A stretch of DNA of 40,559 bases from NCBI GenBank assembly GCA_036339675.1, contig JAYZAN010000078.1:1-40559 (forward strand), read 5' to 3'. Shown here piece after piece: positions 6,141-40,412 of the stretch. Origin of the DNA: Nitrospinota bacterium. GTDB lineage: Bacteria > Nitrospinota > Nitrospinia > Nitrospinales > VA-1. Position 1 is the stretch's first letter. Each line of letters begins with the position of its first letter. The notes below the pieces were generated by a model. The model had not been told where the DNA came from and searched no databases. It was given only the letters and a program-made list of their open reading frames with translations. The position numbers and the translations under genes are program-made.

Positions 6141-6428
6141 GGAAACCTCTAATAAGTCTAAATTTTTGTGGAGAACCTCCGCTTGTAAAGGGTGACATTA
6201 TTAATTCGCGCTCAACGTTCATCGTCAACTCTAGAATCTATTAGCCAACTACCCCCGCGGTACGCCCACTATGTGGGAGGAAAAAGGATGAACCTTATTT
6301 TGCGCCCAACGATCATCGTAAGCTCAAAAGCTATTAGCCATCTGGCACCGCGCCGAGCGGACGGCCATGAACTTGCCCTTGAATTTAAAGGGCAAGTTCA
6401 TGGCCGATCACAATTTTTAGAGGTGCCC
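6141..6428. mobile_element. MITE-like element carrying two tandem repeat-family units and a long hairpin
   Basis: Imperfect terminal inverted repeats GGAAACCTCTAA / TTAGAGGTGCCC; TTAT direct repeat on both flanks (6137-6140, 6429-6432); units at 6206 and 6300; homologous to 40270-40412 and to dnaE insertions. Confidence 0.7.
6362..6406. repeat. Perfect 19-bp inverted repeat with 7-nt loop
   Basis: CGGCCATGAACTTGCCCTT (6362-6380) / AAGGGCAAGTTCATGGCCG (6388-6406). Confidence 0.95.
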
Positions 6429-6515: not shown

Positions 6516-7394
6516 TTATCCATGTACCTGTAAAATTTTTTTCGCCGATATGATCCGGTCGCGGCCGCTGTAATCGGGAAACACCTCAACACCGGCAACC
6601 CCCCCATGAGCCCGGAAAATTTCAGAAACTCTTTGAGCCTGGTCTTCGCCGATCTCCATAAGAAGACTTCCCCCGTCTTTTAGAACTGTGAATGAACGGG
6701 GAATGATTCTTTTATAAAAATCAAGACCTCCCGGCCCGCCATCCAATGCCTGCCGGGGTTCATAAGCCCTCACATCGGTCATCAGGTGGTCCAGACGTCG
6801 GGTCTCTATGTAGGGAGGATTTGACAGAATAAAATCGTAAACTGGCCCGCAATCCTCATCCATTAAATCCGCGTGCACAAAACGAATGCGGTCCGACACC
6901 TGATGAGTTCGTGCATTTTCCCCGGCAATATCCAAGGCGTTTTTTGAGTTGTCCACAGCGGTTATCATCGCCCGGGACAATTCTTTAGCCACAGCGATGG
7001 CGATATTTCCGGTGCCGGTTCCAATATCCAGAATTTGAAACGGCCGATCCTTCTCCGATGCGGTTATCAGATCCAGAAACCGCTCAAGGAGAACCTCCGT
7101 TTCGGGCCTGGGCACCAGGACATCCGGGGTTACTTTAAAATCGAGGGACCAGAATTCCTTTTTCTTCAGGATATAAGAAACCGGCTCCCAGCGTGCCCGC
7201 CGTTCGACAAAATTTTTACAGATCTGATGTTCTTGTTCGGTCAATTCCCGGCGCGGAGCGATGAGTAAGTGTTCCCGGCTGGATTTCAGAACCTCCGCTA
7301 AAAGTACTTCGGAGTCCAGGCGGGGATTATCGACCCCGGCGCGGTCCAGACAGGACGAAGACCAATCGAGGAATCTCTGTGCCGTCCAGTTCAT
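6516..7394 (-). CDS. prmC: Release factor glutamine methyltransferase PrmC/HemK
   Basis: VLVPRPETE, LDIGTGTG, SNPPY, ALDGG..GLDFY; downstream of prfA; ORF extends to 7448 but ATG at 7394 fits family length. Confidence 0.95.
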   Translation of the reverse strand: MNWTAQRFLDWSSSCLDRAGVDNPRLDSEVLLAEVLKSSREHLLIAPRRELTEQEHQICKNFVERRARWEPVSYILKKKEFWSLDFKVTPDVLVPRPETEVLLERFLDLITASEKDRPFQILDIGTGTGNIAIAVAKELSRAMITAVDNSKNALDIAGENARTHQVSDRIRFVHADLMDEDCGPVYDFILSNPPYIETRRLDHLMTDVRAYEPRQALDGGPGGLDFYKRIIPRSFTVLKDGGSLLMEIGEDQAQRVSEIFRAHGGVAGVEVFPDYSGRDRIISAKKILQVHG

Positions 7395-7460
7395 CGTCCC
7401 ATCCCCTTTCACCCTTTGATTGAGAATTCCGTTCTGAGTGCGGTTCATTAATTTTAATGA

Positions 7461-8567
7461 TCATACCGAAAGTGTTCCGGCCTTTTCATTCTTTCCTTCG
7501 TCATCCCTTTGTTTGAGAGATTCCGTCTGAAAATGAATCGCTAGTTTTTCGACGATTTCATCCAGATCCCCCTCCATGACCTGGGAGAGTTTGTGAAGGG
7601 TCAACCCGATTCGATGATCGGTGATCCTCTCCTGCGGGAAATTATAGGTCCTGATCCGTTCGCTCCGGTCACCGGTTCCAACCTGCTGTTTCCGGTTACG
7701 GGCCAACTCGTCTTTTTGTTTTCTCTGCTGCTCATCGTACAACCTGGCACGAAGGACCTTCATGGCTTTATCCTTATTCTTGTGCTGGGATTTCTCGTCC
7801 TGACAGGTCACGACCAGCCCGGAAGGGACATGAGTGATTCTCACCGCCGAATCCGTGGTGTTGACGCTTTGTCCCCCAGGACCAGATGAACGAAATACAT
7901 CGATCTTTAATTCCGCGAGATTGATCTTGATATCTATATCTTCCGCTTCGGGCAGAATGGCCACGGTTACCGCCGAGGTGTGGATTCGCCCCTGGCTTTC
8001 GGTCTCAGGCACCCGCTGCACGCGGTGGGTACCGCTCTCAAACTTTAATTTACTGAATACTCCCTTCCCTTGAATACTCAAAATGACCTCTTTGAAACCA
8101 CCCTTTCCGGTCGGGTTCTGGCTCAAAATCTCCGTCTTCCATTTTTTGGTCTCTGCATAACGATTGTACATCCTGAACAAATCCGCAGAAAACAGGGAAG
8201 CCTCTTCTCCCCCTGTACCCGCGCGGATTTCCATGATGGCGTTTTTTTCATCCCGGGGATCCTTGGGAAGAAGCAGTACCTTCAACCGGTTTTCGGCCGC
8301 GGATTTTTCTTCCTCCAATCTTTGCAGGTCTTCCTGGGCCAGTTCGAGAAGTTCAGGGTCGTCTTCCTCACCCAGAAGTTTATTACTGTCCTCCAATTGC
8401 CGGTTGATCTTTTTCAATTGCCGGTATTCGGTCATGATTGGAGCGAGATCCGACTGCTCCTTGGCGTACTTCTGGTATTCGAATTGCCTAGAGATGATAT
8501 CCGGGTCACTGAGCAATTCGTTCAGGTCATTGTACCTTTTTTCAACTTCCTCAAGCCGGTCAAACAT
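7461..8567 (-). CDS. prfA: Peptide chain release factor 1
   Basis: GGQ motif ([10 protein letters not shown]), PET anticodon-like tripeptide, EIRAGTGG; start ATG 8567 (ORF to 8588). Confidence 0.97.
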
Positions 8568-8672
8568 GATTCTCTTTCCGAAACTCAAAAAATTGTGTGG
8601 CAGTTAACTTAAGGGATGTCGGGATTCGACGGAAATGGGTCTAGGGACAACGAGGGGGGTCGCGCCCGGAGG

Positions 8673-8773
8673 CCAGCGTGACGGTGGACCCAACAGGGTG
8701 AAGTTCTGATTGCGCTCAGTAATTATTGAGTATAAACCAGAGTTTCAGCCAGTTCCCCGCCCGCGTGGCGGGC
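8673..8773 (+). repeat. Diverged intergenic copy of the repeat family
   Basis: CCAGCGTGACGGTGGACCCAACA matches 11627-11649 at 20/23; then, at the same 16-nt spacing after CCCAA, TTGCGCTCAG-N28-GCCA (8710-8751). Confidence 0.6.
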
Positions 8774-8777
8774 CAGA

Positions 8778-10278: not shown

Positions 10279-10504
10279 GGGATGCGACTTAGTTGAGGTG
10301 AGAGTTGAATTAGATTCCTGTTTTTGGCTAGTTTTTTGAATGGTGATTTGTCTGGTTTAAGGTTTGTGAAAAGGAATGAATGAGGGTAAGGTCCGGATTT
10401 CCAAAAAATTGTTTTCTGAATATATCGGCAAAGGTGCGTAGAAAGCTGAGCTGGATTGATTGGGTTATGGGGTTTTTTTAATAGGGGCGCTGGAGGTTTC
10501 TAAC

Positions 10505-10533
10505 AATGTATCCAGTTACATATTCTTTGTCAA
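10505..10533 (-). promoter_or_regulatory. Sigma70-type promoter for rho operon
   Basis: Minus strand TTGACA-N17-TACATT about 230 nt upstream of rho. Confidence 0.7.
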
Positions 10534-10566
10534 CAACTTTTTCCCTGATGTTATGGAAACTCCCGG

Positions 10567-10598
10567 GCCCCCACGGCGAGTGGCCGGGCGTGGCCCGG
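10567..10598 (+). repeat. Fragment (right arm plus small hairpin) of the repeat family
   Basis: GCCCCCACGGCGAG identical to 12327-12340, followed by TGGCCGGGCGTGGCCCGG, similar to 11722-11739. Confidence 0.7.
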
Positions 10599-10608
10599 AA
10601 ATTTTATC

Positions 10609-10638
10609 TTGACCCGGCGCTCCATCCCGATTTAAGAT
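10609..10638 (+). promoter_or_regulatory. Candidate sigma70-type promoter for dnaE2-like gene
   Basis: TTGACC-N18-TAAGAT about 70 nt before the ATG. Confidence 0.45.
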
Positions 10639-10707
10639 ACTTGATACCCAAACCATCGAAAACAAGGCATTTTTTTTGTCCCTTATTTTCGTTTTTTATT
10701 CGCTTTT

Positions 10708-13700
10708 ATGTTTGTACACCTAAACTGCCACAGCAACTATTCGCTCCTCGCGGGCACGAACCGGGTCGACGACCTGGTCCGGGCGGCCGCGGCCCAGGGA
10801 TGCCCGGCACTGGCTCTGACAGATACCAACGGTCTCTATGGGGCCATACCGTTCTATCAGGCGGCTCTCAAGGCCCATATACGCCCGATCCTGGGAACGG
10901 AGATAATAACAAACCGGCGTGCGACACTTCTGGCAAAGAATCTGCGGGGATTCGGGGAAATCTGCCGCATCATCACCCGCCGCCATCTGCAGCCCGGTTT
11001 CTCCCTAGAAAAATGCCTGGAGCAATGCAGCCATGACGTCATCATTCTGTGCCCGGATGAAAACCTCCTGGAAAACACGATCGCTGTCCGGGGAGGCGAA
11101 GACATCTACGCGGAACTGCTCGCCGCAGGGGCGGATGGCAAAAACCCAGACTGGCGACCTCAAGCGATTGGGCGCGAGACGGGGTCCGGCCTGTTCCCCC
11201 CGGGCGTAGGCCACCACACGGGGAGAAAAGTCGTTCCAGAAAATCCCGGTTTCGCCCAACGATCATCGTTTGGAGAACAAAGCATTAGCCAATTCCCTCC
11301 GAGCGTGACCCGGCGGCGAGCAGTGGCTACCAACCGGGTGTTTTTCATTCGTCCGGAGGACTGGCAGATCCACCGTCTCCTTACGGCAATACGCACCGGC
11401 ACGACCGTAGACGCATCGTCTGCACTGCATGAATCGAAAGAGTTATGGATGAAGCCGCCTGAGGAAATGGTCCGCCTGTTCCATGACATCCCGGAAGCCA
11501 TCCGGAACACTCTCGACATCGCCGAACAGTGCAATGTCGTCCTGCCCATCGGCGAGATACGGCTCCCGAACTTTCCGCTGCATGCGAGCGGGATACCTTC
11601 CTCCCGGCTGGTCGCCGCAGGGGCGCCCAGCGTGACGCTGGGCCCAATAAGTTCAACCTTATCTCGCGCTCAACGGTCAACGCAAGATCAAAAGTTGTTG
11701 GCCATTTGGCCCCGCGCCGAGCGGCCAGGCGTGGCCCGGCTTCGCAGACTTGCCCGGGAGGGAGCCGTAAAACTTTATGGTCACCCGCCGCCTTCCGATG
11801 TATCCGAGAGACTGCGTTACGAGCTTGAGGTCATCGACAACCTTGATTTTGCCTCCTATTTTCTGATCGTCTGGGACATCGTGCGTGAGGCGAAAGCCCG
11901 GGGCATCCCCACGGTGGGGCGCGGTTCCGCCGCCAACAGCCTGGTGTGTCGGGTCTTGGGAATCACCGAGGTGGACCCGATCGAACACAACCTGTATTTC
12001 GAGCGGTTCCTCAACCCGGAACGAACGGATTACCCCGATATCGACATCGATTTTCCCTGGAACCGGAGAGACGAAATGCTGGAATACGTGTTCAACAAAT
12101 ACGGACATGAGAACGTGGCGCTGATCTCCACCCATGTCCACTTCCGGGGCCGCTCGGCGCTCCGGGAGGTGGGCAAAGCCCTAGGGGTTCCCCTCCCAGA
12201 GATCGACGCCTTCGTCAAGAGGCTACCGCATTCTTTCGACGTGGCCGGGCCACGCCCAGGGGGAACAGGCCAGACCCCGTCTCGCACCCAATCGCTTGAG
12301 GTCGCCAGTCTGGGTTTTTGCCAACCGCCCCCACGGCGAGCCCACTACGTGGGAGAAAACGGGGGAAAATGGATTTCGCGCTCAACTGTCAATGCAAGTT
12401 CAAAAGCTGTTAGCCATTTGGCCCCGCGAGCGGCCGGACTGGAAGAGGTGAGGAAACTGGTGCCGGAATGCCGGGACCTGCCGCTGGAAGACGAACCTTA
12501 CCGGTCGATCATCGCGCTGAGCAAAAGGATCGACGGATTCCCCAGGCATCTGTCGATTCACTGCGGGGGCATCGTGATCAGTCCGTTTCCCATCACCGAC
12601 CGGATACCGCTTCAGAAAACACCCAAGGGATTCGTAGTGACGCAGTACGACATGTACCCCGTCGAGGACATGGGACTGCTGAAGATCGATCTTCTCGCGC
12701 AGAAAGGGCTAGCCGTGCTCGCGGACACGGTGCAAAACGTCAAAACCCTTTATGGAACAAAAATCGATTTCAGCCAGATCGATCCCACGCGCGATTCCAG
12801 GACCCGCCGGTTGATCCGGCAGGGAAAAACCATCGGTTGTTTCTACATCGAGTCTCCGGGCATGAGAAACCTTCTGCAGAAACTGGAGGTCGACAGTTTC
12901 GACATGCTGACGGCGGCCAGTTCCATCATACGTCCGGGCGTGGCGGACAGCGGCATGATGAAGGCGTTCATCGACCGCCACAACGGCAGGGAGAAAGTCC
13001 ACTATCTGCACCCGAAAATGGAAGAGATCCTGAAAGAAACTTTCGGCGTGATGATCTACCAGGAAGACGTGATCAAGGTCGCCCACGCGATCGCTGGAAT
13101 GAGCCTGGGAGAAGCGGACAGCCTCAGAAAATGCATGAGCAAAAAGAGAGACTGGGAGGACATCAACAACCACCGGGAACGTTTTTTTTCGGGAGCACGC
13201 GCGAACGGTATCGCGAAAAAAATCATCGAAGAAATCTGGAGGCAGATCGAAAGCTTTGCGGGATACGCGTTCTGCAAAGCCCACAGCGCTTCTTTCGCGC
13301 TGGTCTCCTACCAATGCGCCTACCTGAAGGCGCACTACCCCACCGAGTTCATGGCGGCGGTCCTGTCCAACCGGGGCGGGTTCTACGACGCCTGCGCCTA
13401 CACCGAGGAAGCGCGGCGTATGGGAATCAAGATACTAGCTCCACACGTCAATCACAGTGCCGAAGAATTCATGGCATGCGGAAAACGCGCCATGTATGTC
13501 GGGCTCGGACAAGTAAAAGGGCTGTCGCACCACACCATAAGCACTATTCTGAAACACCGCAAGGACGGTCCTTATGTATCGGTGGCGGATTTCCTGTCGC
13601 GTGTGGAGGCAAGCATTCCGGAAACCGAGGCCCTGATCCGCTGCGGCGCACTCGACGGGGCGAGAACTTCACGCCCGGAACTGTTGTGGCAGCTGAAGCT

Positions 13701-14217
13701 TTTAACTCGTGCGGAAAAAAACGGGCCCATGGCAAGTCTCCCGTTTACTTCTGTCCGGAGGACCAGGATTCTTAAACTCCCCGAGTACACCCTACGCGAA
13801 AAAGTGCTGGCGGAGCTGGAGCACCTGGATCTCGCGGTCTCAGCCCACCTGTTGTTGCTCTACGATGTGAACCAAGCGGGGTTGACACAGGCGCGGGACT
13901 TGGTCCAGTTTCCCGGATGCATCGTAACGCTGGCCGGATGGCTGGTGACCGCCAAAAGCACCTGGACCGTGCAGCACCAGTTGATGAAGTTTCTGATGCT
14001 GGAAGACGCCACGGCATCTTTCGAGGTCACATTGTTCCCGAAGGTTTACAGGCGGTTCGGGCCGCTCCTCTATGACCGCGGACCTTACATCGTCAAGGGC
14101 CGGGTGGAGTCGGAAGGCCGGTGCCATACCATCACGGCGCTCTGGCTGGGCCGCTGCTCACCCACTCGCCGTGGAGGCGGTTGGCAAAAACTCTGGATCG
14201 CGAACTCTAGTGATTGA
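10708..14217 (+). CDS. dnaE2: DNA polymerase III alpha subunit family, DnaE2-like (error-prone type), with repeat-derived in-frame insertions
   Basis: PHP-like N-terminus (HLNCHSNYS), GRGSAANSLV, FERFL, PDIDIDF, RHLSIHCGG, KIDLL, YAFCKAH, OB fold (FLMLED); ends just after the OB fold with no long tau-binding CTD. Confidence 0.85.
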   Translation: MFVHLNCHSNYSLLAGTNRVDDLVRAAAAQGCPALALTDTNGLYGAIPFYQAALKAHIRPILGTEIITNRRATLLAKNLRGFGEICRIITRRHLQPGFSLEKCLEQCSHDVIILCPDENLLENTIAVRGGEDIYAELLAAGADGKNPDWRPQAIGRETGSGLFPPGVGHHTGRKVVPENPGFAQRSSFGEQSISQFPPSVTRRRAVATNRVFFIRPEDWQIHRLLTAIRTGTTVDASSALHESKELWMKPPEEMVRLFHDIPEAIRNTLDIAEQCNVVLPIGEIRLPNFPLHASGIPSSRLVAAGAPSVTLGPISSTLSRAQRSTQDQKLLAIWPRAERPGVARLRRLAREGAVKLYGHPPPSDVSERLRYELEVIDNLDFASYFLIVWDIVREAKARGIPTVGRGSAANSLVCRVLGITEVDPIEHNLYFERFLNPERTDYPDIDIDFPWNRRDEMLEYVFNKYGHENVALISTHVHFRGRSALREVGKALGVPLPEIDAFVKRLPHSFDVAGPRPGGTGQTPSRTQSLEVASLGFCQPPPRRAHYVGENGGKWISRSTVNASSKAVSHLAPRAAGLEEVRKLVPECRDLPLEDEPYRSIIALSKRIDGFPRHLSIHCGGIVISPFPITDRIPLQKTPKGFVVTQYDMYPVEDMGLLKIDLLAQKGLAVLADTVQNVKTLYGTKIDFSQIDPTRDSRTRRLIRQGKTIGCFYIESPGMRNLLQKLEVDSFDMLTAASSIIRPGVADSGMMKAFIDRHNGREKVHYLHPKMEEILKETFGVMIYQEDVIKVAHAIAGMSLGEADSLRKCMSKKRDWEDINNHRERFFSGARANGIAKKIIEEIWRQIESFAGYAFCKAHSASFALVSYQCAYLKAHYPTEFMAAVLSNRGGFYDACAYTEEARRMGIKILAPHVNHSAEEFMACGKRAMYVGLGQVKGLSHHTISTILKHRKDGPYVSVADFLSRVEASIPETEALIRCGALDGARTSRPELLWQLKLLTRAEKNGPMASLPFTSVRRTRILKLPEYTLREKVLAELEHLDLAVSAHLLLLYDVNQAGLTQARDLVQFPGCIVTLAGWLVTAKSTWTVQHQLMKFLMLEDATASFEVTLFPKVYRRFGPLLYDRGPYIVKGRVESEGRCHTITALWLGRCSPTRRGGGWQKLWIANSSD
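11119..11320. repeat. dnaE insertion 1: two back-to-back repeat units (minus 11119-11177, plus 11250-11308)
   Basis: 11119-11207 is the reverse complement of 12252-12340 at 83/89; CGCCCAACGATCATCGT identical to 6303-6319; boundaries approximate. Confidence 0.85.
11581..11740 (+). repeat. dnaE insertion 2: hairpin plus one repeat unit
   Basis: 11655-11724 matches 6291-6360 at 58/70 ungapped; GCCCAGCGT-G-ACGCTGGGC palindrome; boundaries approximate. Confidence 0.85.
12241..12438 (+). repeat. dnaE insertion 3: two tandem repeat units (12282, 12376)
   Basis: 12320-12428 matches 6244-6352 at 81/109 ungapped; same 94-bp period as the 6206/6300 pair. Confidence 0.9.
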
Positions 14218-14259
14218 GCGCGAGACGGCGTCTGGTCTGTTTCCTCCGGGCGTGGCCCG
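14165..14259 (-). repeat. Repeat copy overlapping the dnaE stop codon
   Basis: 79/95 ungapped identity to the reverse complement of 12246-12340; same orientation as 11119-11207. Confidence 0.9.
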
Positions 14260-14370
14260 ACTGGACTTCTGAGCCAGACATTAATACTTTTTTATTTATA
14301 AAACACCGGTGTACACTGGGATGAATCTCTCTTAACACAGCACATCCATTGGCATCCGGGAACACTTCAA

Positions 14371-15351
14371 ATGAGTGAGCAAAAAGATTTCACCATCGAG
14401 TCCAAAGATTTTGAGCCAGCCTATATGAAGCTGTTCAGGACCGGGGAGCTGTACCGCCGGTCAAGGGAGGTGTTGCGCCTGTTGGAGAACTGCAAGGTAT
14501 GCCCCCGCGACTGCGAGGTGGACCGGCTGGCGGATGAAACGGCGGTCTGCAAAACTGGACGGCACGCGATCGTGTCGAGCGCCTTCCCGCATTTCGGCGA
14601 GGAAGACTGCTTACGGGGCTGGAACGGGAGCGGAACCATTTTCTTCTCCATGTGCAACCTGAAGTGCGTTTTCTGCCAGAACTACGACATCAGCCAGGAT
14701 GGCGAAGGCCAGGAAGCAGGGCCGGAACACTTGGCGTTCATGATGATGAATCTTCAGAACCGGGGGTGCCACAACATCAATTTCGTGACTCCCGAGCACG
14801 TCGTGCCGCAAATCCTGGAAGCCCTGCCGCTGGCCGTGCAACTGGGGCTGAGGCTGCCCCTGGTTTACAATACCGGAGCCTATGATTCCATGGACAGTAT
14901 GCGGGTGATGGACGGAATCGTAGATATCTATATGCCCGACTTCAAATACTGGAGTCCGGAACTTTCAAAAAAATACCTGAAGGCGAAGGATTACCCGGAA
15001 GCCGCACAACGGGTCATCCGGGAAATGCACCGGCAGGTGGGCGATCTGGTTGTGGATGAAAACGGTCTGGCCAAACGTGGGGTTCTGATCCGCCATTTGG
15101 TCATGCCGGACAGCGATTCGGATGCCAGGCAGATCATGCATTTTTTAAATCATGAAGTTTCTCCTCATACGTACGTCAACATCATGTCTCAATATCGCCC
15201 TGCGGGAAAGGTGAACGCGAACAAATACCCCGAACTCAACCGGAAAATCTTTTCAGAGGAAGTCGGCCGGGTTTATAAAATCGCCAGAGAGGAGGGACTG
15301 TACCGGTTCGATAAAAGGCGTCCCGTATCCGGCGCATTTGCAATTGTCTGA
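14371..15351 (+). CDS. PflX-like radical SAM protein
   Basis: C..CPR.C, HFGEE.CL.G..GSGTIFF, CNLKCVFC (CxxxCxxC), NINFVTP, DIYMPDFKY, RHLVMP. Confidence 0.9.
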   Translation: MSEQKDFTIESKDFEPAYMKLFRTGELYRRSREVLRLLENCKVCPRDCEVDRLADETAVCKTGRHAIVSSAFPHFGEEDCLRGWNGSGTIFFSMCNLKCVFCQNYDISQDGEGQEAGPEHLAFMMMNLQNRGCHNINFVTPEHVVPQILEALPLAVQLGLRLPLVYNTGAYDSMDSMRVMDGIVDIYMPDFKYWSPELSKKYLKAKDYPEAAQRVIREMHRQVGDLVVDENGLAKRGVLIRHLVMPDSDSDARQIMHFLNHEVSPHTYVNIMSQYRPAGKVNANKYPELNRKIFSEEVGRVYKIAREEGLYRFDKRRPVSGAFAIV

Positions 15352-16414: not shown

Positions 16415-17041
16415 TTATTTCTTTTTACCTTTTCCTTTATCTTCGGTTTTGCCTTGATCCTTTTTCTTTGAAGCGGAGGTGGCTTTTTTGGCTTTTGAAG
16501 CCGCTTTTGCCGGTTTTTCTTCTTCTTTTTTCTTTGATTTTTTGGGAGCGGCCTTTTTTGCTTTGACCTTGGGTGCTTGTTTGGTTTCCTCTTTTTTCTT
16601 ATCCGGCTTTTTTTTAGGGGCCGCCTTCGTTTCCTTTTTGGGTTTAGCCTTGGTTTCCCCCGCCGATTCTTTCTGGGCTTCCCCATCACGGTCGACCAGT
16701 TCGATAAAAGCCATGGGTGCATCGTCACCCAGACGGTTTCCTATTTTGATGATCCTGGTATAACCTCCATTTCTGTTGGCATAGCGTTCTGCAAGGGGAC
16801 CAAAAAGTTTCTGGACCGATTTCTTCTCCGCCACCAACCTGAGGGCGAGCCTACGGGCGTGCACCGTTCCTTTTTTACCCAGAGTGATTGTTTTATCGAC
16901 CTTACCTCTTAACTCCTTGGCTTTGGCCAAGGTGGTACAAATCCGCTCCCGCTTGACCAACGCCGACACCATATTGCGGAACATGGCTTTCCGGTGAGCA
17001 GAGGTCCGACCGAACTTTCTACCTGACTTTAAATGGCGCAT
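16415..17041 (-). CDS. rplQ: 50S ribosomal protein L17 with long Lys/Ala/Glu-rich tail
   Basis: [26 protein letters not shown]; about 90 aa low-complexity extension. Confidence 0.97.
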
Positions 17042-40269: not shown

Positions 40270-40412
40270 AAATGGCAAGTTCATGCCGCTCGCCACGGAG
40301 GCAGATGGCTAATAGCTTTTAAGCTTACGATGACCGTTGGGCGCAAATCATAGACGGTGAATATTTCTTGCGGAGGTACTCCGCCTATGAGCAATTTTTA
40401 GAGATTCCCTTA
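40270..40412 (-). mobile_element. Partial MITE-like element with one repeat unit
   Basis: 40302-40347 reverse complement matches 6299-6344 at 44/46; end 40392-40415 matches 6411-6434 at 22/24; GCGGAG-GTA-CTCCGC hairpin at the same 23-nt distance from the core as in the 6.1 kb element. Confidence 0.8.

What the first reader, a model, noticed from the sequence alone, without database searches (positions are those of the whole stretch)
11119..12340. 89-bp inverted repeat inside dnaE2 brackets the palm motif: possible intragenic inversion switch or mRNA duplex
Seen: 11119-11207 and 12252-12340 are reverse complements at 83/89, including a 37-bp perfect run, which is closer than either is to the 14165 copy. 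They flank 1044 bp that encode GRGSAA and PDIDIDF. The reverse strand of that interval has no full-length ORF, so inversion would inactivate the gene. Inference: the pair could act as a reversible ON/OFF switch for an error-prone polymerase, or form a long-range helix in the transcript that affects translation, RNase III cleavage or processing. It may also just reflect two recent insertions.
Basis: partly seen in the sequence, partly recalled or inferred. Interest (0 to 1): 0.7.

Follow-up and report, generated by a model that had tools for sequence, protein, structure and literature searches.

The report
Mobile repeats translated inside polymerase gene
The inverted repeat is two opposite copies of a small mobile DNA repeat that has landed several times, in frame, inside a spare DNA-polymerase gene of a marine nitrite-oxidising bacterium, a known kind of event and most likely not a switch.

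Summary
Window 11119-11207 and 12252-12340 are reverse complements at 83/89 with a 37-nt perfect run. The arms extend to 95 nt at 92%.

They are not a dedicated switch. They are two oppositely oriented units of a ~100-nt dispersed repeat family with covarying terminal hairpins. This 1.8-Mb Nitrospinaceae MAG holds 161 units at 137 sites. 35 of 60 related genomes also hold the family.

The host gene (10708-14217, 1169 aa) is a second DnaE paralogue. It carries six units at four sites: five inside the ORF, all in frame and stop-free, and one supplying the C-terminal tail and stop. Orthologues lack these segments. AlphaFold places pLDDT<50 exactly on them.

One 132-nt insert (11603-11734) is missing from contigs of two other marine metagenomes.

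No strand-changing junction appeared in the contigs of four runs, and no recombinase gene lies nearby. A simulated inversion would break the gene.

This is the only gene in the assembly with internal units. Orthologues in other Nitrospinaceae carry their own in-frame units at other positions.

Closest known: Rickettsia palindromic elements.

The parts
10708..14217 (+). Second DnaE-family polymerase gene (dnaE2-like), 1169 codons, intact ORF. It hosts all the units listed below.
   Evidence: ORF. Pfam PHP, DNA_pol3_alpha, finger and HHH_6 domains. TIGR00594 740.9 bits, but below the equivalog/subfamily cut-offs. The true dnaE1 lies on contig C49. Catalytic D444, D446 and D661 are invariant in 22 sequences.
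11116..11211 (+). Unit 1a ('A1'), the left arm of the inverted repeat. Translated as part of residues 137-169.
   Evidence: (CM 72.6 bits).
11213..11322 (-). Unit 1b, abutting 1a. Units 1a and 1b together (207 nt, 69 codons) replace about 20-24 native residues of the PHP domain.
   Evidence: nhmmer model positions 2-96. Orthologue alignments. pLDDT<50 at residues 141-201.
11603..11734 (-). Insert 2: 132 nt (44 codons) holding one full unit (CM 11622-11724) plus a short hairpin piece. CCCGGCT is repeated at both edges. Polymorphic between strains.
   Evidence: Contigs X1 record 3 and X2 record 8 join 11602 to 11735, with 7 letters fitting either side. Sequence. CM hit. pLDDT<50 at 293-336.
12242..12340 (-). 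Unit 3a ('A2'), the right arm of the inverted repeat.
   Evidence: (76.4 bits).
12341..12432 (-). Unit 3b, head-to-tail with 3a on the minus strand. Insert 3 as a whole is 12244-12432, 189 nt (63 codons), with GCCGG at both edges.
   Evidence: (66.9 bits). pLDDT<50 at 515-575. An in-frame 3-nt indel at 12426 appears in three runs.
14162..14262 (+). Unit 4 ('A3'). It straddles the stop codon and supplies the last ~18 codons and the TGA.
   Evidence: 90.4 bits. Orthologues end earlier or differently. pLDDT<50 at 1154-1169.
10569..10598 (.). 30-nt mini-element made of the two terminal hairpin motifs only. It lies 110 nt upstream of the start codon, just before a promoter-like site.
   Evidence: Direct repeat D3 with 11710-11739. 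Hairpin 10584-10598 and promoter-like site 10609-10638 (not above the shuffle expectation).

Best explanation
The inverted repeat is a by-product of mobile-repeat insertions. It is two oppositely oriented units of a ~100-nt dispersed repeat family whose ends form small conserved hairpins. The family is MITE/REP-like and its mobilising enzyme is unknown.

The family has colonised this second DnaE paralogue at four sites with six units. Only insertions that kept the reading frame and carried no stop codon have survived. The units are therefore translated as about 45-70-residue unstructured loops in the PHP domain, in the PHP-palm linker and between the two halves of the palm, and as a new C-terminal tail. 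The polymerase core stays intact.

The two arms are unusually alike because they arose from each other inside the gene, by local re-insertion or gene conversion.

Shown here: family membership, absence from orthologues, frame preservation, strain polymorphism of one insert, and purifying selection on the native parts. Inferred: translation of the inserts, tolerance by the protein, and the mode of spread.
For: (1) Family. 222 nhmmer hits, reducing to 161 non-redundant units at 137 sites, with 0 hits in the shuffled genome. The alignment shows conserved ends and a variable middle. The terminal stems covary, e.g. pair 90-96 GC:36/AU:16 and pair 3-11 GC:25/AU:23 in 58 units. CM R1 finds the family in 35 of 60 other Nitrospinaceae genomes.

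(2) Insertions. 9 orthologues, 14 and the 4 closest all lack residues ~141-204, 299-342 and 513-575.

(3) Frame. All five internal units are stop-free in the gene's frame, whereas only 18.6% of unit-by-frame combinations are open genome-wide. By my arithmetic 0.186^5 is about 2e-4, before also requiring three site lengths divisible by 3.

(4) Strain polymorphism. Contigs of X1 and X2 skip exactly 11603-11734 (132 nt), and a CAC/CGC 3-nt indel lies at 12426.

(5) The gene is alive. Of the 40 listed variant positions (of 113), 37 lie in native parts, with 22 synonymous and 15 non-synonymous. The catalytic residues are invariant.

(6) Structure. The AlphaFold2 model has mean pLDDT 77.6, and pLDDT<50 falls at 141-201, 293-336, 515-575 and 1154-1169, with one native linker (1006-1016) also low.

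(7) Independent assemblies from other studies contain the units and their junctions: X6 record 24 covers 11078-11392, X2 record 8 covers 11169-12290, and X1 record 4 covers 12326-12851.

(8) A1 and A2 are mutual nearest neighbours at 93%, against a family median of 82%. Only 15 of 126 units have their nearest neighbour on the same contig.
Against: No transposase or other mobilising gene was found. Y1_Tnp is absent from this assembly (78% complete) and from 4 of 5 relatives checked, including two single-contig genomes rich in units.

Low pLDDT over the inserts is expected wherever the alignment has only gaps, so it does not prove disorder.

Translation of the inserts was not observed; no RNA or protein data were laid.

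Tolerance alone does not explain why this is the only gene of the assembly with internal units, or why orthologues in other lineages are colonised too.

At site 1 the units replace native PHP-domain residues, which could mean partial loss of function.

The synonymous/non-synonymous count uses only the 40 variants shown of 113.
Confidence: 0.85

Rival explanations
1. Reversible ON/OFF inversion switch. Recombination between the two arms flips 11213-12246 and turns the polymerase gene off and on.
For: The arms are 95 nt at 92% with a 37-nt perfect run, long enough in principle for homologous recombination (general knowledge, recalled). Inversion would truncate the protein at residue 179. The pair is more alike than most family pairs.
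Against: No strand-changing joint appeared in the contigs of 4 runs from 4 studies, and the left arm is bridged in the reference orientation. The flanking genes are rho and a radical-SAM gene, not a recombinase. The arms are ordinary members of a 161-unit family. Known invertible switches use short specific sites plus a dedicated recombinase (recalled). Contigs cannot show rare variants, so this is weak negative evidence.
Confidence: 0.03
2. Long-range mRNA helix. The two arms pair in the transcript, closing a 1-kb loop, and the duplex lowers translation or is cut by RNase III, damping a potentially mutagenic polymerase.
For: The minimum-free-energy and centroid folds of 11100-12360 both contain the full arm-to-arm helix.
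Against: Any 95-nt inverted repeat would give that fold. Both arms lie in translated sequence, where ribosomes would unwind them. Orthologues carry units in other arrangements, for example direct repeats at 96% in L020, so no conserved pairing exists. No RNA data could be laid.
Confidence: 0.07
3. Decaying gene. The paralogue is on its way to becoming a pseudogene, and the units accumulate because nothing selects against them.
For: Six units sit in one gene. Units 1a and 1b replace about 20-24 native PHP-domain residues. The gene is present in only about half of the relatives. It is below the NCBIfam cut-offs.
Against: A 1169-codon frame is open through five units whose family is open in only 18.6% of frames. 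There is a synonymous excess in the native parts (22:15). The indels seen between strains are in frame (132 nt and 3 nt). The catalytic aspartates are invariant. Orthologues without inserts fall below the same cut-offs too, so the low scores are a trait of the paralogue and not a sign of decay.
Confidence: 0.07
4. Assembly artefact. The repeats were spliced into the gene by metagenome mis-assembly.
For: The genome is a 161-contig MAG and contigs tend to break at these repeats.
Against: Contigs assembled independently from four other studies contain the same unit-to-gene junctions. All sites keep the frame.
Confidence: 0.01

Closest known systems
Rickettsia palindromic elements (RPEs; Ogata et al. 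2000 Science and 2002, as summarised in passages of PMC10969869 read)
   Same: Both are small (~100-150 nt) dispersed repeats with hairpin potential that sit in frame inside protein-coding genes. They are read through as extra peptide segments compatible with the host fold, and they also occur between genes.
   Different: The sequence family and the phylum differ (a free-living marine Nitrospinaceae). Units are read in different frames and orientations, so there is no conserved inserted peptide: A1 and A3 are read in different frames. RPEs sit in many unrelated genes, whereas here all internal units of the assembly are in one gene.
REP/BIME elements with RAYT (Y1 HUH) transposases, and IS200/IS605-derived hairpin elements
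   Same: The ends are short GC-rich hairpins whose stems covary. Units occur as doublets and head-to-tail arrays: 22 doublets and 1 triplet among 137 sites, and arrays at 99-nt spacing in G010.
   Different: No Y1_Tnp gene was found in this assembly or in 4 of 5 relatives, including two single-contig genomes with 38 and 51 or more units. The unit is ~100 nt with two different end hairpins and a variable middle, not a single ~35-nt palindrome.
MITEs in the strict sense (non-autonomous IS derivatives with terminal inverted repeats and target-site duplications; reviews PMC10969869, passages read, and PMC3184786, abstract in search listing only)
   Same: Similar size, high copy number and no coding capacity. 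Direct repeats flank two sites: 7 nt at insert 2, confirmed by the empty allele, and 5 nt at insert 3.
   Different: There are no clear terminal inverted repeats and no parent IS was identified. The flanking repeats resemble the unit's own 3' end, so they may reflect target preference or microhomology and not a true duplication.
NTS/SRM hairpin repeats with Ssn GIY-YIG ssDNA nucleases (PMC11893778, passages read)
   Same: Both are hairpin repeats dispersed in hundreds of copies and sometimes intragenic.
   Different: The paper's degenerate SRM motif gives 5 matches in this genome against 9-15 in shuffles, and none overlaps a unit. The only GIY-YIG match lies in a 614-aa frame, not in a small single-domain Ssn-type gene.

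Membership tests
RPE-like 'coding' repeats (behavioural class) | The repeat belongs to a dispersed multi-copy family | tested here: met
   161 units at 137 sites, and 0 hits in the shuffled genome.
RPE-like 'coding' repeats (behavioural class) | The repeat is inserted inside an ORF with the frame kept and no stop, and is absent from orthologues | tested here: met
RPE-like 'coding' repeats (behavioural class) | The inserted segment is compatible with the host fold (surface loop) | tested here: inconclusive
   The AlphaFold2 core is confident and the inserts have pLDDT<50, but low confidence is expected without homologues. Site 1 also deletes native residues.
RPE sequence families (Rickettsia RPE-1 to -10) | Sequence homology to RPE consensus sequences, and a conserved encoded peptide | not tested
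   No RPE sequences were at hand. Units here are read in different frames, so no single encoded peptide exists.
REP/RAYT or IS200/IS605-derived elements | A Y1 HUH transposase gene in the genome, typically flanked by the repeats | tested here: not met
   PF01797 gives 0 matches in G000 (78% complete). It gives 1 match among 5 relatives, and none in the single-contig genomes G057 and G018.
REP/RAYT or IS200/IS605-derived elements | Conserved hairpins at the element ends | tested here: met
   Covarying stems at model positions 1-4/10-13 and 86-91/95-100.
MITE (strict) | Terminal inverted repeats matching a parent IS | tested here: inconclusive
   The two ends carry different hairpins. Some loci hit the model on both strands. 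No parent IS was searched for beyond Y1.
MITE (strict) | Target-site duplication | tested here: inconclusive
   A 7-nt repeat flanks insert 2, with the empty allele seen, and a 5-nt repeat flanks insert 3. None is obvious at site 1.
NTS/SRM-Ssn | Repeats match the SRM motif and a small Ssn-type GIY-YIG gene is present | tested here: not met
Invertible-DNA phase switch (invertons) | Both orientations present in a population | tested here: not met
   No strand-changing joint appeared in the contigs of 4 runs. These were contigs only, so rare forms are not excluded.
Invertible-DNA phase switch (invertons) | A dedicated recombinase encoded nearby | tested here: not met
   Eleven ORFs between 3625 and 18825 were scanned with Pfam, and no recombinase domain was found.
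DnaE2/ImuC error-prone polymerase | Reaches the NCBIfam NF004225 subfamily cut-off | tested here: not met
   632.7 against 939 bits. Insert-free orthologues score 674-699 bits.
DnaE2/ImuC error-prone polymerase | Lies in an imuA-imuB-dnaE2 cassette | tested here: not met
   The neighbours are rho and a radical-SAM gene. The one Y-family (IMS) gene is on another contig, C109.
Rfam RNA families | A match to any curated covariance model | tested here: not met
   0 matches at gathering score over the whole window, and 0 at E<=1 over 11000-12500.

The most novel reading that the evidence does not exclude
The DnaE paralogue is a preferred landing site, or a selected host, for this hairpin-repeat family, not merely a tolerant one. 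The evidence for this reading is as follows. It is the only gene of 1.8 Mb with internal units. It holds 4 of 137 sites where about 0.23 would be expected, P about 1e-4 by my Poisson arithmetic. At least two other Nitrospinaceae lineages have independently filled the same gene with their own in-frame units, which again are each other's closest relatives. One possibility is a mechanistic link between the repeats and this polymerase, for example ssDNA hairpin targeting during its own synthesis tracts. Another is that intragenic hairpins and inverted repeats tune the expression or stability of a mutagenic polymerase.
Probability: 0.12. Interest if true: 0.7.

Novelty: new member of a known kind. 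Interest (0 to 1): 0.4.

Why it matters
If the reading is right, free-living marine nitrite oxidisers join Rickettsia and some ultra-small bacteria as lineages where selfish hairpin repeats are written into proteins.

It gives a natural experiment on how much foreign, probably disordered sequence a C-family polymerase tolerates. About 190 extra residues are spread over three internal sites, and part of the PHP domain is replaced.

The strain-level presence/absence of one 44-codon insert shows the process is ongoing in the ocean.

It also warns annotators and phase-variation scanners that long intragenic inverted repeats can simply be paired repeat insertions.

The concentration on one gene in several lineages is the part that is not explained.

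Tried and rejected
- **Rfam:** no match over the whole window at gathering score, and none over 11000-12500 at E<=1.
- **Y1/RAYT transposase:** not found in this assembly. Found in 1 of 5 relatives.
- **SRM/Ssn system**, a lead from earlier scan notes: the motif is under-represented and no small GIY-YIG gene is present.
- **nhmmer with this genome's unit profile on 42 orthologue loci:** only two weak overlapping hits, in L016. The covariance model with filters off did find 14 matches in L019, L020, L034 and L035. Nine of the 14 have E>0.01, so only five are solid.
- **The two 'goes back' joints, 14194/14195 to 11163:** rejected as rearrangements, because the contigs carry other letters between the sides and match another family copy.
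- **RNA runs X19-X23:** Nothing can be said about expression.
- **Raw reads:** none were available, since all 24 runs are kept as contigs.
- **Batch fold:** A single fold of 1261 nt was done instead.
- it included an irrelevant stretch by my mistake, and its result is not used.
- **Literature:** two searches for repeats or MITEs in Nitrospina returned 2 papers each, none about such elements judging by title and abstract in the listings. This is limited to the open-access library held.
- **Earlier scan notes on this genome:** none.
Full report
**Observation**

- Window 11119-11207 and the reverse complement of 12252-12340 agree at 83 of 89 positions, with a 37-nt perfect run.
- The repeat finder extends the arms to 11118-12212's counterpart: 11118-11212 and 12247-12341, 95 nt at 92% complementarity, with 1034 nt between them.
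- The third copy at 14165 is more distant: 71/89 and 73/89, or 79% and 83%.
- The interval encodes GRGSAA and PDIDIDF.
- Its minus strand has only ORFs of 99-154 aa.
- Inverting 11213-12246 in a script puts a stop at residue 179, with nine stops in all.

**The host gene**

- ORF 10708-14217 encodes 1169 aa with PHP, polymerase core, finger and HhH domains.
- It is a second DnaE paralogue. The genome's true dnaE1 lies on contig C49 and passes the equivalog cut-off (1463.8 against 1002 bits).
- The window gene and its insert-free orthologues pass only the superfamily model. They stay below the cut-offs for DnaE1 and for the error-prone subfamily (632.7-699 against 939 bits).
- Its neighbours are rho (divergent) and a radical-SAM gene. 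No imuA/imuB and no recombinase was found among 11 ORFs scanned between 3625 and 18825.
- The one Y-family polymerase gene is on another contig.
- Orthologue record titles place the organism in marine Nitrospinaceae. The sequencing runs that hold the stretch are seawater or marine metagenomes from 12 studies.

**What the arms are**

- blastn and nhmmer with the gene's odd segments hit dozens of places in the 1.8-Mb, 161-contig assembly.
- An iterated profile finds 222 hits, 162 of them covering at least 80 of 104 model positions. These reduce to 161 non-redundant units (15 kb) at 137 sites. A locally shuffled genome gives 0 hits.
- Units have conserved ends and a variable middle.
- Both ends are small hairpins whose stems covary among 58 near-full units:
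  - 3' stem pairs: 86-100 CG:33/GC:15, 89-97 GC:39/CG:10, 90-96 GC:36/AU:16, 91-95 CG:42/GC:9.
  - 5' stem pair: 3-11 GC:25/AU:23.
- Twenty-two sites are doublets and one is a triplet.
- A covariance model built from 27 units finds the family in 35 of 60 other genomes of the same family. Head-to-tail arrays at 99-nt spacing occur in G010.

**Anatomy in the gene**

Six units occupy four sites:

| Site | Unit | Coordinates | Strand |
|---|---|---|---|
| 1 | 1a = A1 | 11116-11211 | + |
| 1 | 1b | 11213-11322 | - |
| 2 | insert 2 (unit core 11622-11724) | 11603-11734 | - |
| 3 | 3a = A2 | 12242-12340 | - |
| 3 | 3b | 12341-12432 | - |
| 4 | A3 | 14162-14262 | + |

A3 runs across the stop codon.

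- Alignments with 9 orthologues, 14 and the 4 closest show that residues ~141-204, 299-342 and 513-575 are private to the window protein.
- At site 1 the two units (207 nt) occupy all the sequence between the conserved AEL and VATNR motifs. About 20-24 native PHP-domain residues have therefore been replaced. That stretch also varies in length among orthologues.
- All five internal units are free of stops in the gene's frame, although only 18.6% of unit-by-frame combinations are open genome-wide.
- A1 and A3 are read in different frames, so no fixed peptide is encoded.
- An AlphaFold2 model built on a 22-sequence alignment has mean pLDDT 77.6 and pTM 0.77. Its pLDDT<50 segments are 141-201, 293-336, 515-575 and 1154-1169, plus the native linker 1006-1016. 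Low confidence is expected where the alignment is gapped, so this fits disordered loops but does not prove them.
- By alignment to Thermus aquaticus pol III alpha, insert 3 falls between chain residues 531 and 534. Placing that in the thumb region rests on my recollection of the published domain boundaries.

**Population evidence**

Logan contigs of four runs from four studies were laid on 10400-14500.
- Two contigs (X1 record 3, 873 nt; X2 record 8, 990 nt) join 11602 directly to 11735. They skip exactly 132 nt (44 codons), and 7 letters (CCCGGCT) fit either side.
- The resulting empty allele reads like the orthologues at that point.
- Insert 2 is thus a presence/absence polymorphism: either a recent insertion or a precise loss.
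- Other contigs contain the units and their junctions at sites 1 and 3: X6 record 24 covers 11078-11392, X2 record 8 reaches 12290, and X1 record 4 starts at 12326. This rules out a mis-assembly peculiar to this MAG.
- Three runs carry an in-frame 3-nt insertion at 12426, inside unit 3b.
- Of 113 differing positions, 40 are listed. 37 of those lie in native parts, with 22 synonymous and 15 non-synonymous. The three in insert 1 are all non-synonymous.
- This indicates purifying selection on the polymerase, and the catalytic aspartates are invariant across 22 sequences.

**The switch hypothesis**

- The joint table lists three joints only: the 132-nt skip and two 'goes back' joints. The latter carry foreign letters between their sides and match another family copy. 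None changes strand.
- The left arm is bridged in the reference orientation in X6. The right arm is not bridged by any listed piece.
- Contigs drop rare variants and no raw reads were on offer, so this is weak negative evidence.
- Together with the missing recombinase and the arms being ordinary family members, it makes a designed switch unlikely.
- Occasional RecA-type inversion between 95-nt arms remains possible. It would simply inactivate the gene.

**The mRNA helix**

The fold of 11100-12360 pairs the arms completely in both the minimum-free-energy and centroid structures. Any such repeat would do so. Nothing else speaks for a function, and the arms lie in translated sequence.

**What is unusual**

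- *One gene only.* Among all 161 units, only those in this gene have at least 50 open codons on both sides in an ORF of at least 100 aa. The single exception is one unit in a 158-aa frame made largely of two units. All other ORF overlaps are at ORF edges. With 137 sites in 1.8 Mb, about 0.23 sites are expected in ~3 kb of native gene and four are seen. That gives a Poisson P of about 1e-4 by my arithmetic.
- *Intragenic units are each other's closest relatives.* A1 and A2 are 93% alike and A3's best match is A2, whereas the family median is 82% and only 15 of 126 units have their nearest neighbour on the same contig. This points to local re-insertion or gene conversion.
- *The pattern recurs in other lineages.*
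  - Orthologues L019/L020 and L034/L035 (other Nitrospinaceae MAGs) have their own private in-frame insertions at other positions.
  - L020 holds ~100-nt repeats inside the gene, including two direct copies at 96%, and shares the family's 3'-end motif.
  - With filters off, the covariance model gives 14 matches in those four loci (five at E<=0.01). All lie inside the orthologous ORFs and none in their flanks or in four other loci.
  - Full-length copies of L020's unit occur only inside that gene in its ~2-Mb genome, while the terminal hairpin part occurs at five other places.

Why this gene is favoured is not explained by my data.

**Comparison with known systems**

- The behaviour matches Rickettsia palindromic elements as summarised in PMC10969869 (passages read): dispersed hairpin repeats read through inside genes. 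It differs in three ways: there is no conserved peptide, the host is free-living, and the units concentrate in one gene.
- The hairpin ends and arrays recall REP/BIME or IS200/IS605-derived elements. However, Y1_Tnp is absent here (78% complete assembly) and in 4 of 5 relatives, including two single-contig unit-rich genomes.
- Strict MITE features are inconclusive.
- The SRM/Ssn system (PMC11893778, passages read) is excluded. Its motif gives 5 matches against 9-15 in shuffles, none in a unit, and no small GIY-YIG gene is present.
- Rfam has no match.
- Earlier notes of this scan describe in-frame hairpin repeats in dnaE or DnaE-like genes of other phyla. These are unchecked leads that prompted the SRM and RAYT tests. 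They suggest the kind of event is not rare.

**Verdict**

The feature is a pair of repeat insertions within a heavily colonised but still selected polymerase paralogue. It is a new repeat family showing a known behaviour, with an unexplained preference for this gene.

Noticed in passing
window 6170-6260, 6265-6360, 8661-8774, 40286-40387: Further units of the same repeat family lie between genes: a doublet between the EPSP-synthase-family gene and prmC, one between prfA and rho that hits the model on both strands, and one near the window's end that is 95% identical to a copy on contig C95.
   Followed up: partly
window 16415-17041 (-): Ribosomal protein L17 is 208 aa. The Pfam domain covers residues 20-116 and is followed by a ~90-residue Lys/Ala/Glu-rich tail. 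No repeat unit lies there.
   Followed up: partly
G000 contig C109:6337-6459 and 8281-8384, around 7142-7585: The genome's only Y-family (IMS) polymerase gene, in a 478-aa frame, is bracketed by two units of the same repeat family within about 1 kb on each side.
   Followed up: no
G010:C24:165736-166135; G057:C1:2089435-2089634: Relatives hold head-to-tail arrays of 2-4 units at 99-nt spacing, with neighbouring units overlapping by about 4 nt.
   Followed up: no
G000 contigs C109:31050-31151, C137:14359-14458, C12:2005-2313 and others: Several units lie at the 3' edge of ORFs of 120-200 aa and would supply C-terminal tails and stop codons, as A3 does for the polymerase gene. Whether these ORFs are real genes was not checked.
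   Followed up: no
window 10569-10598: A 30-nt piece made of only the two terminal hairpin motifs sits in the polymerase gene's upstream region, next to a promoter-like site at 10609-10638. The promoter count is not above the shuffle expectation.
   Followed up: partly
L030:3046-3135; L027:5788-5862: Other Nitrospinaceae orthologues have private in-frame segments of 25-30 aa that the unit model did not match. They may belong to other repeat families.
   Followed up: no
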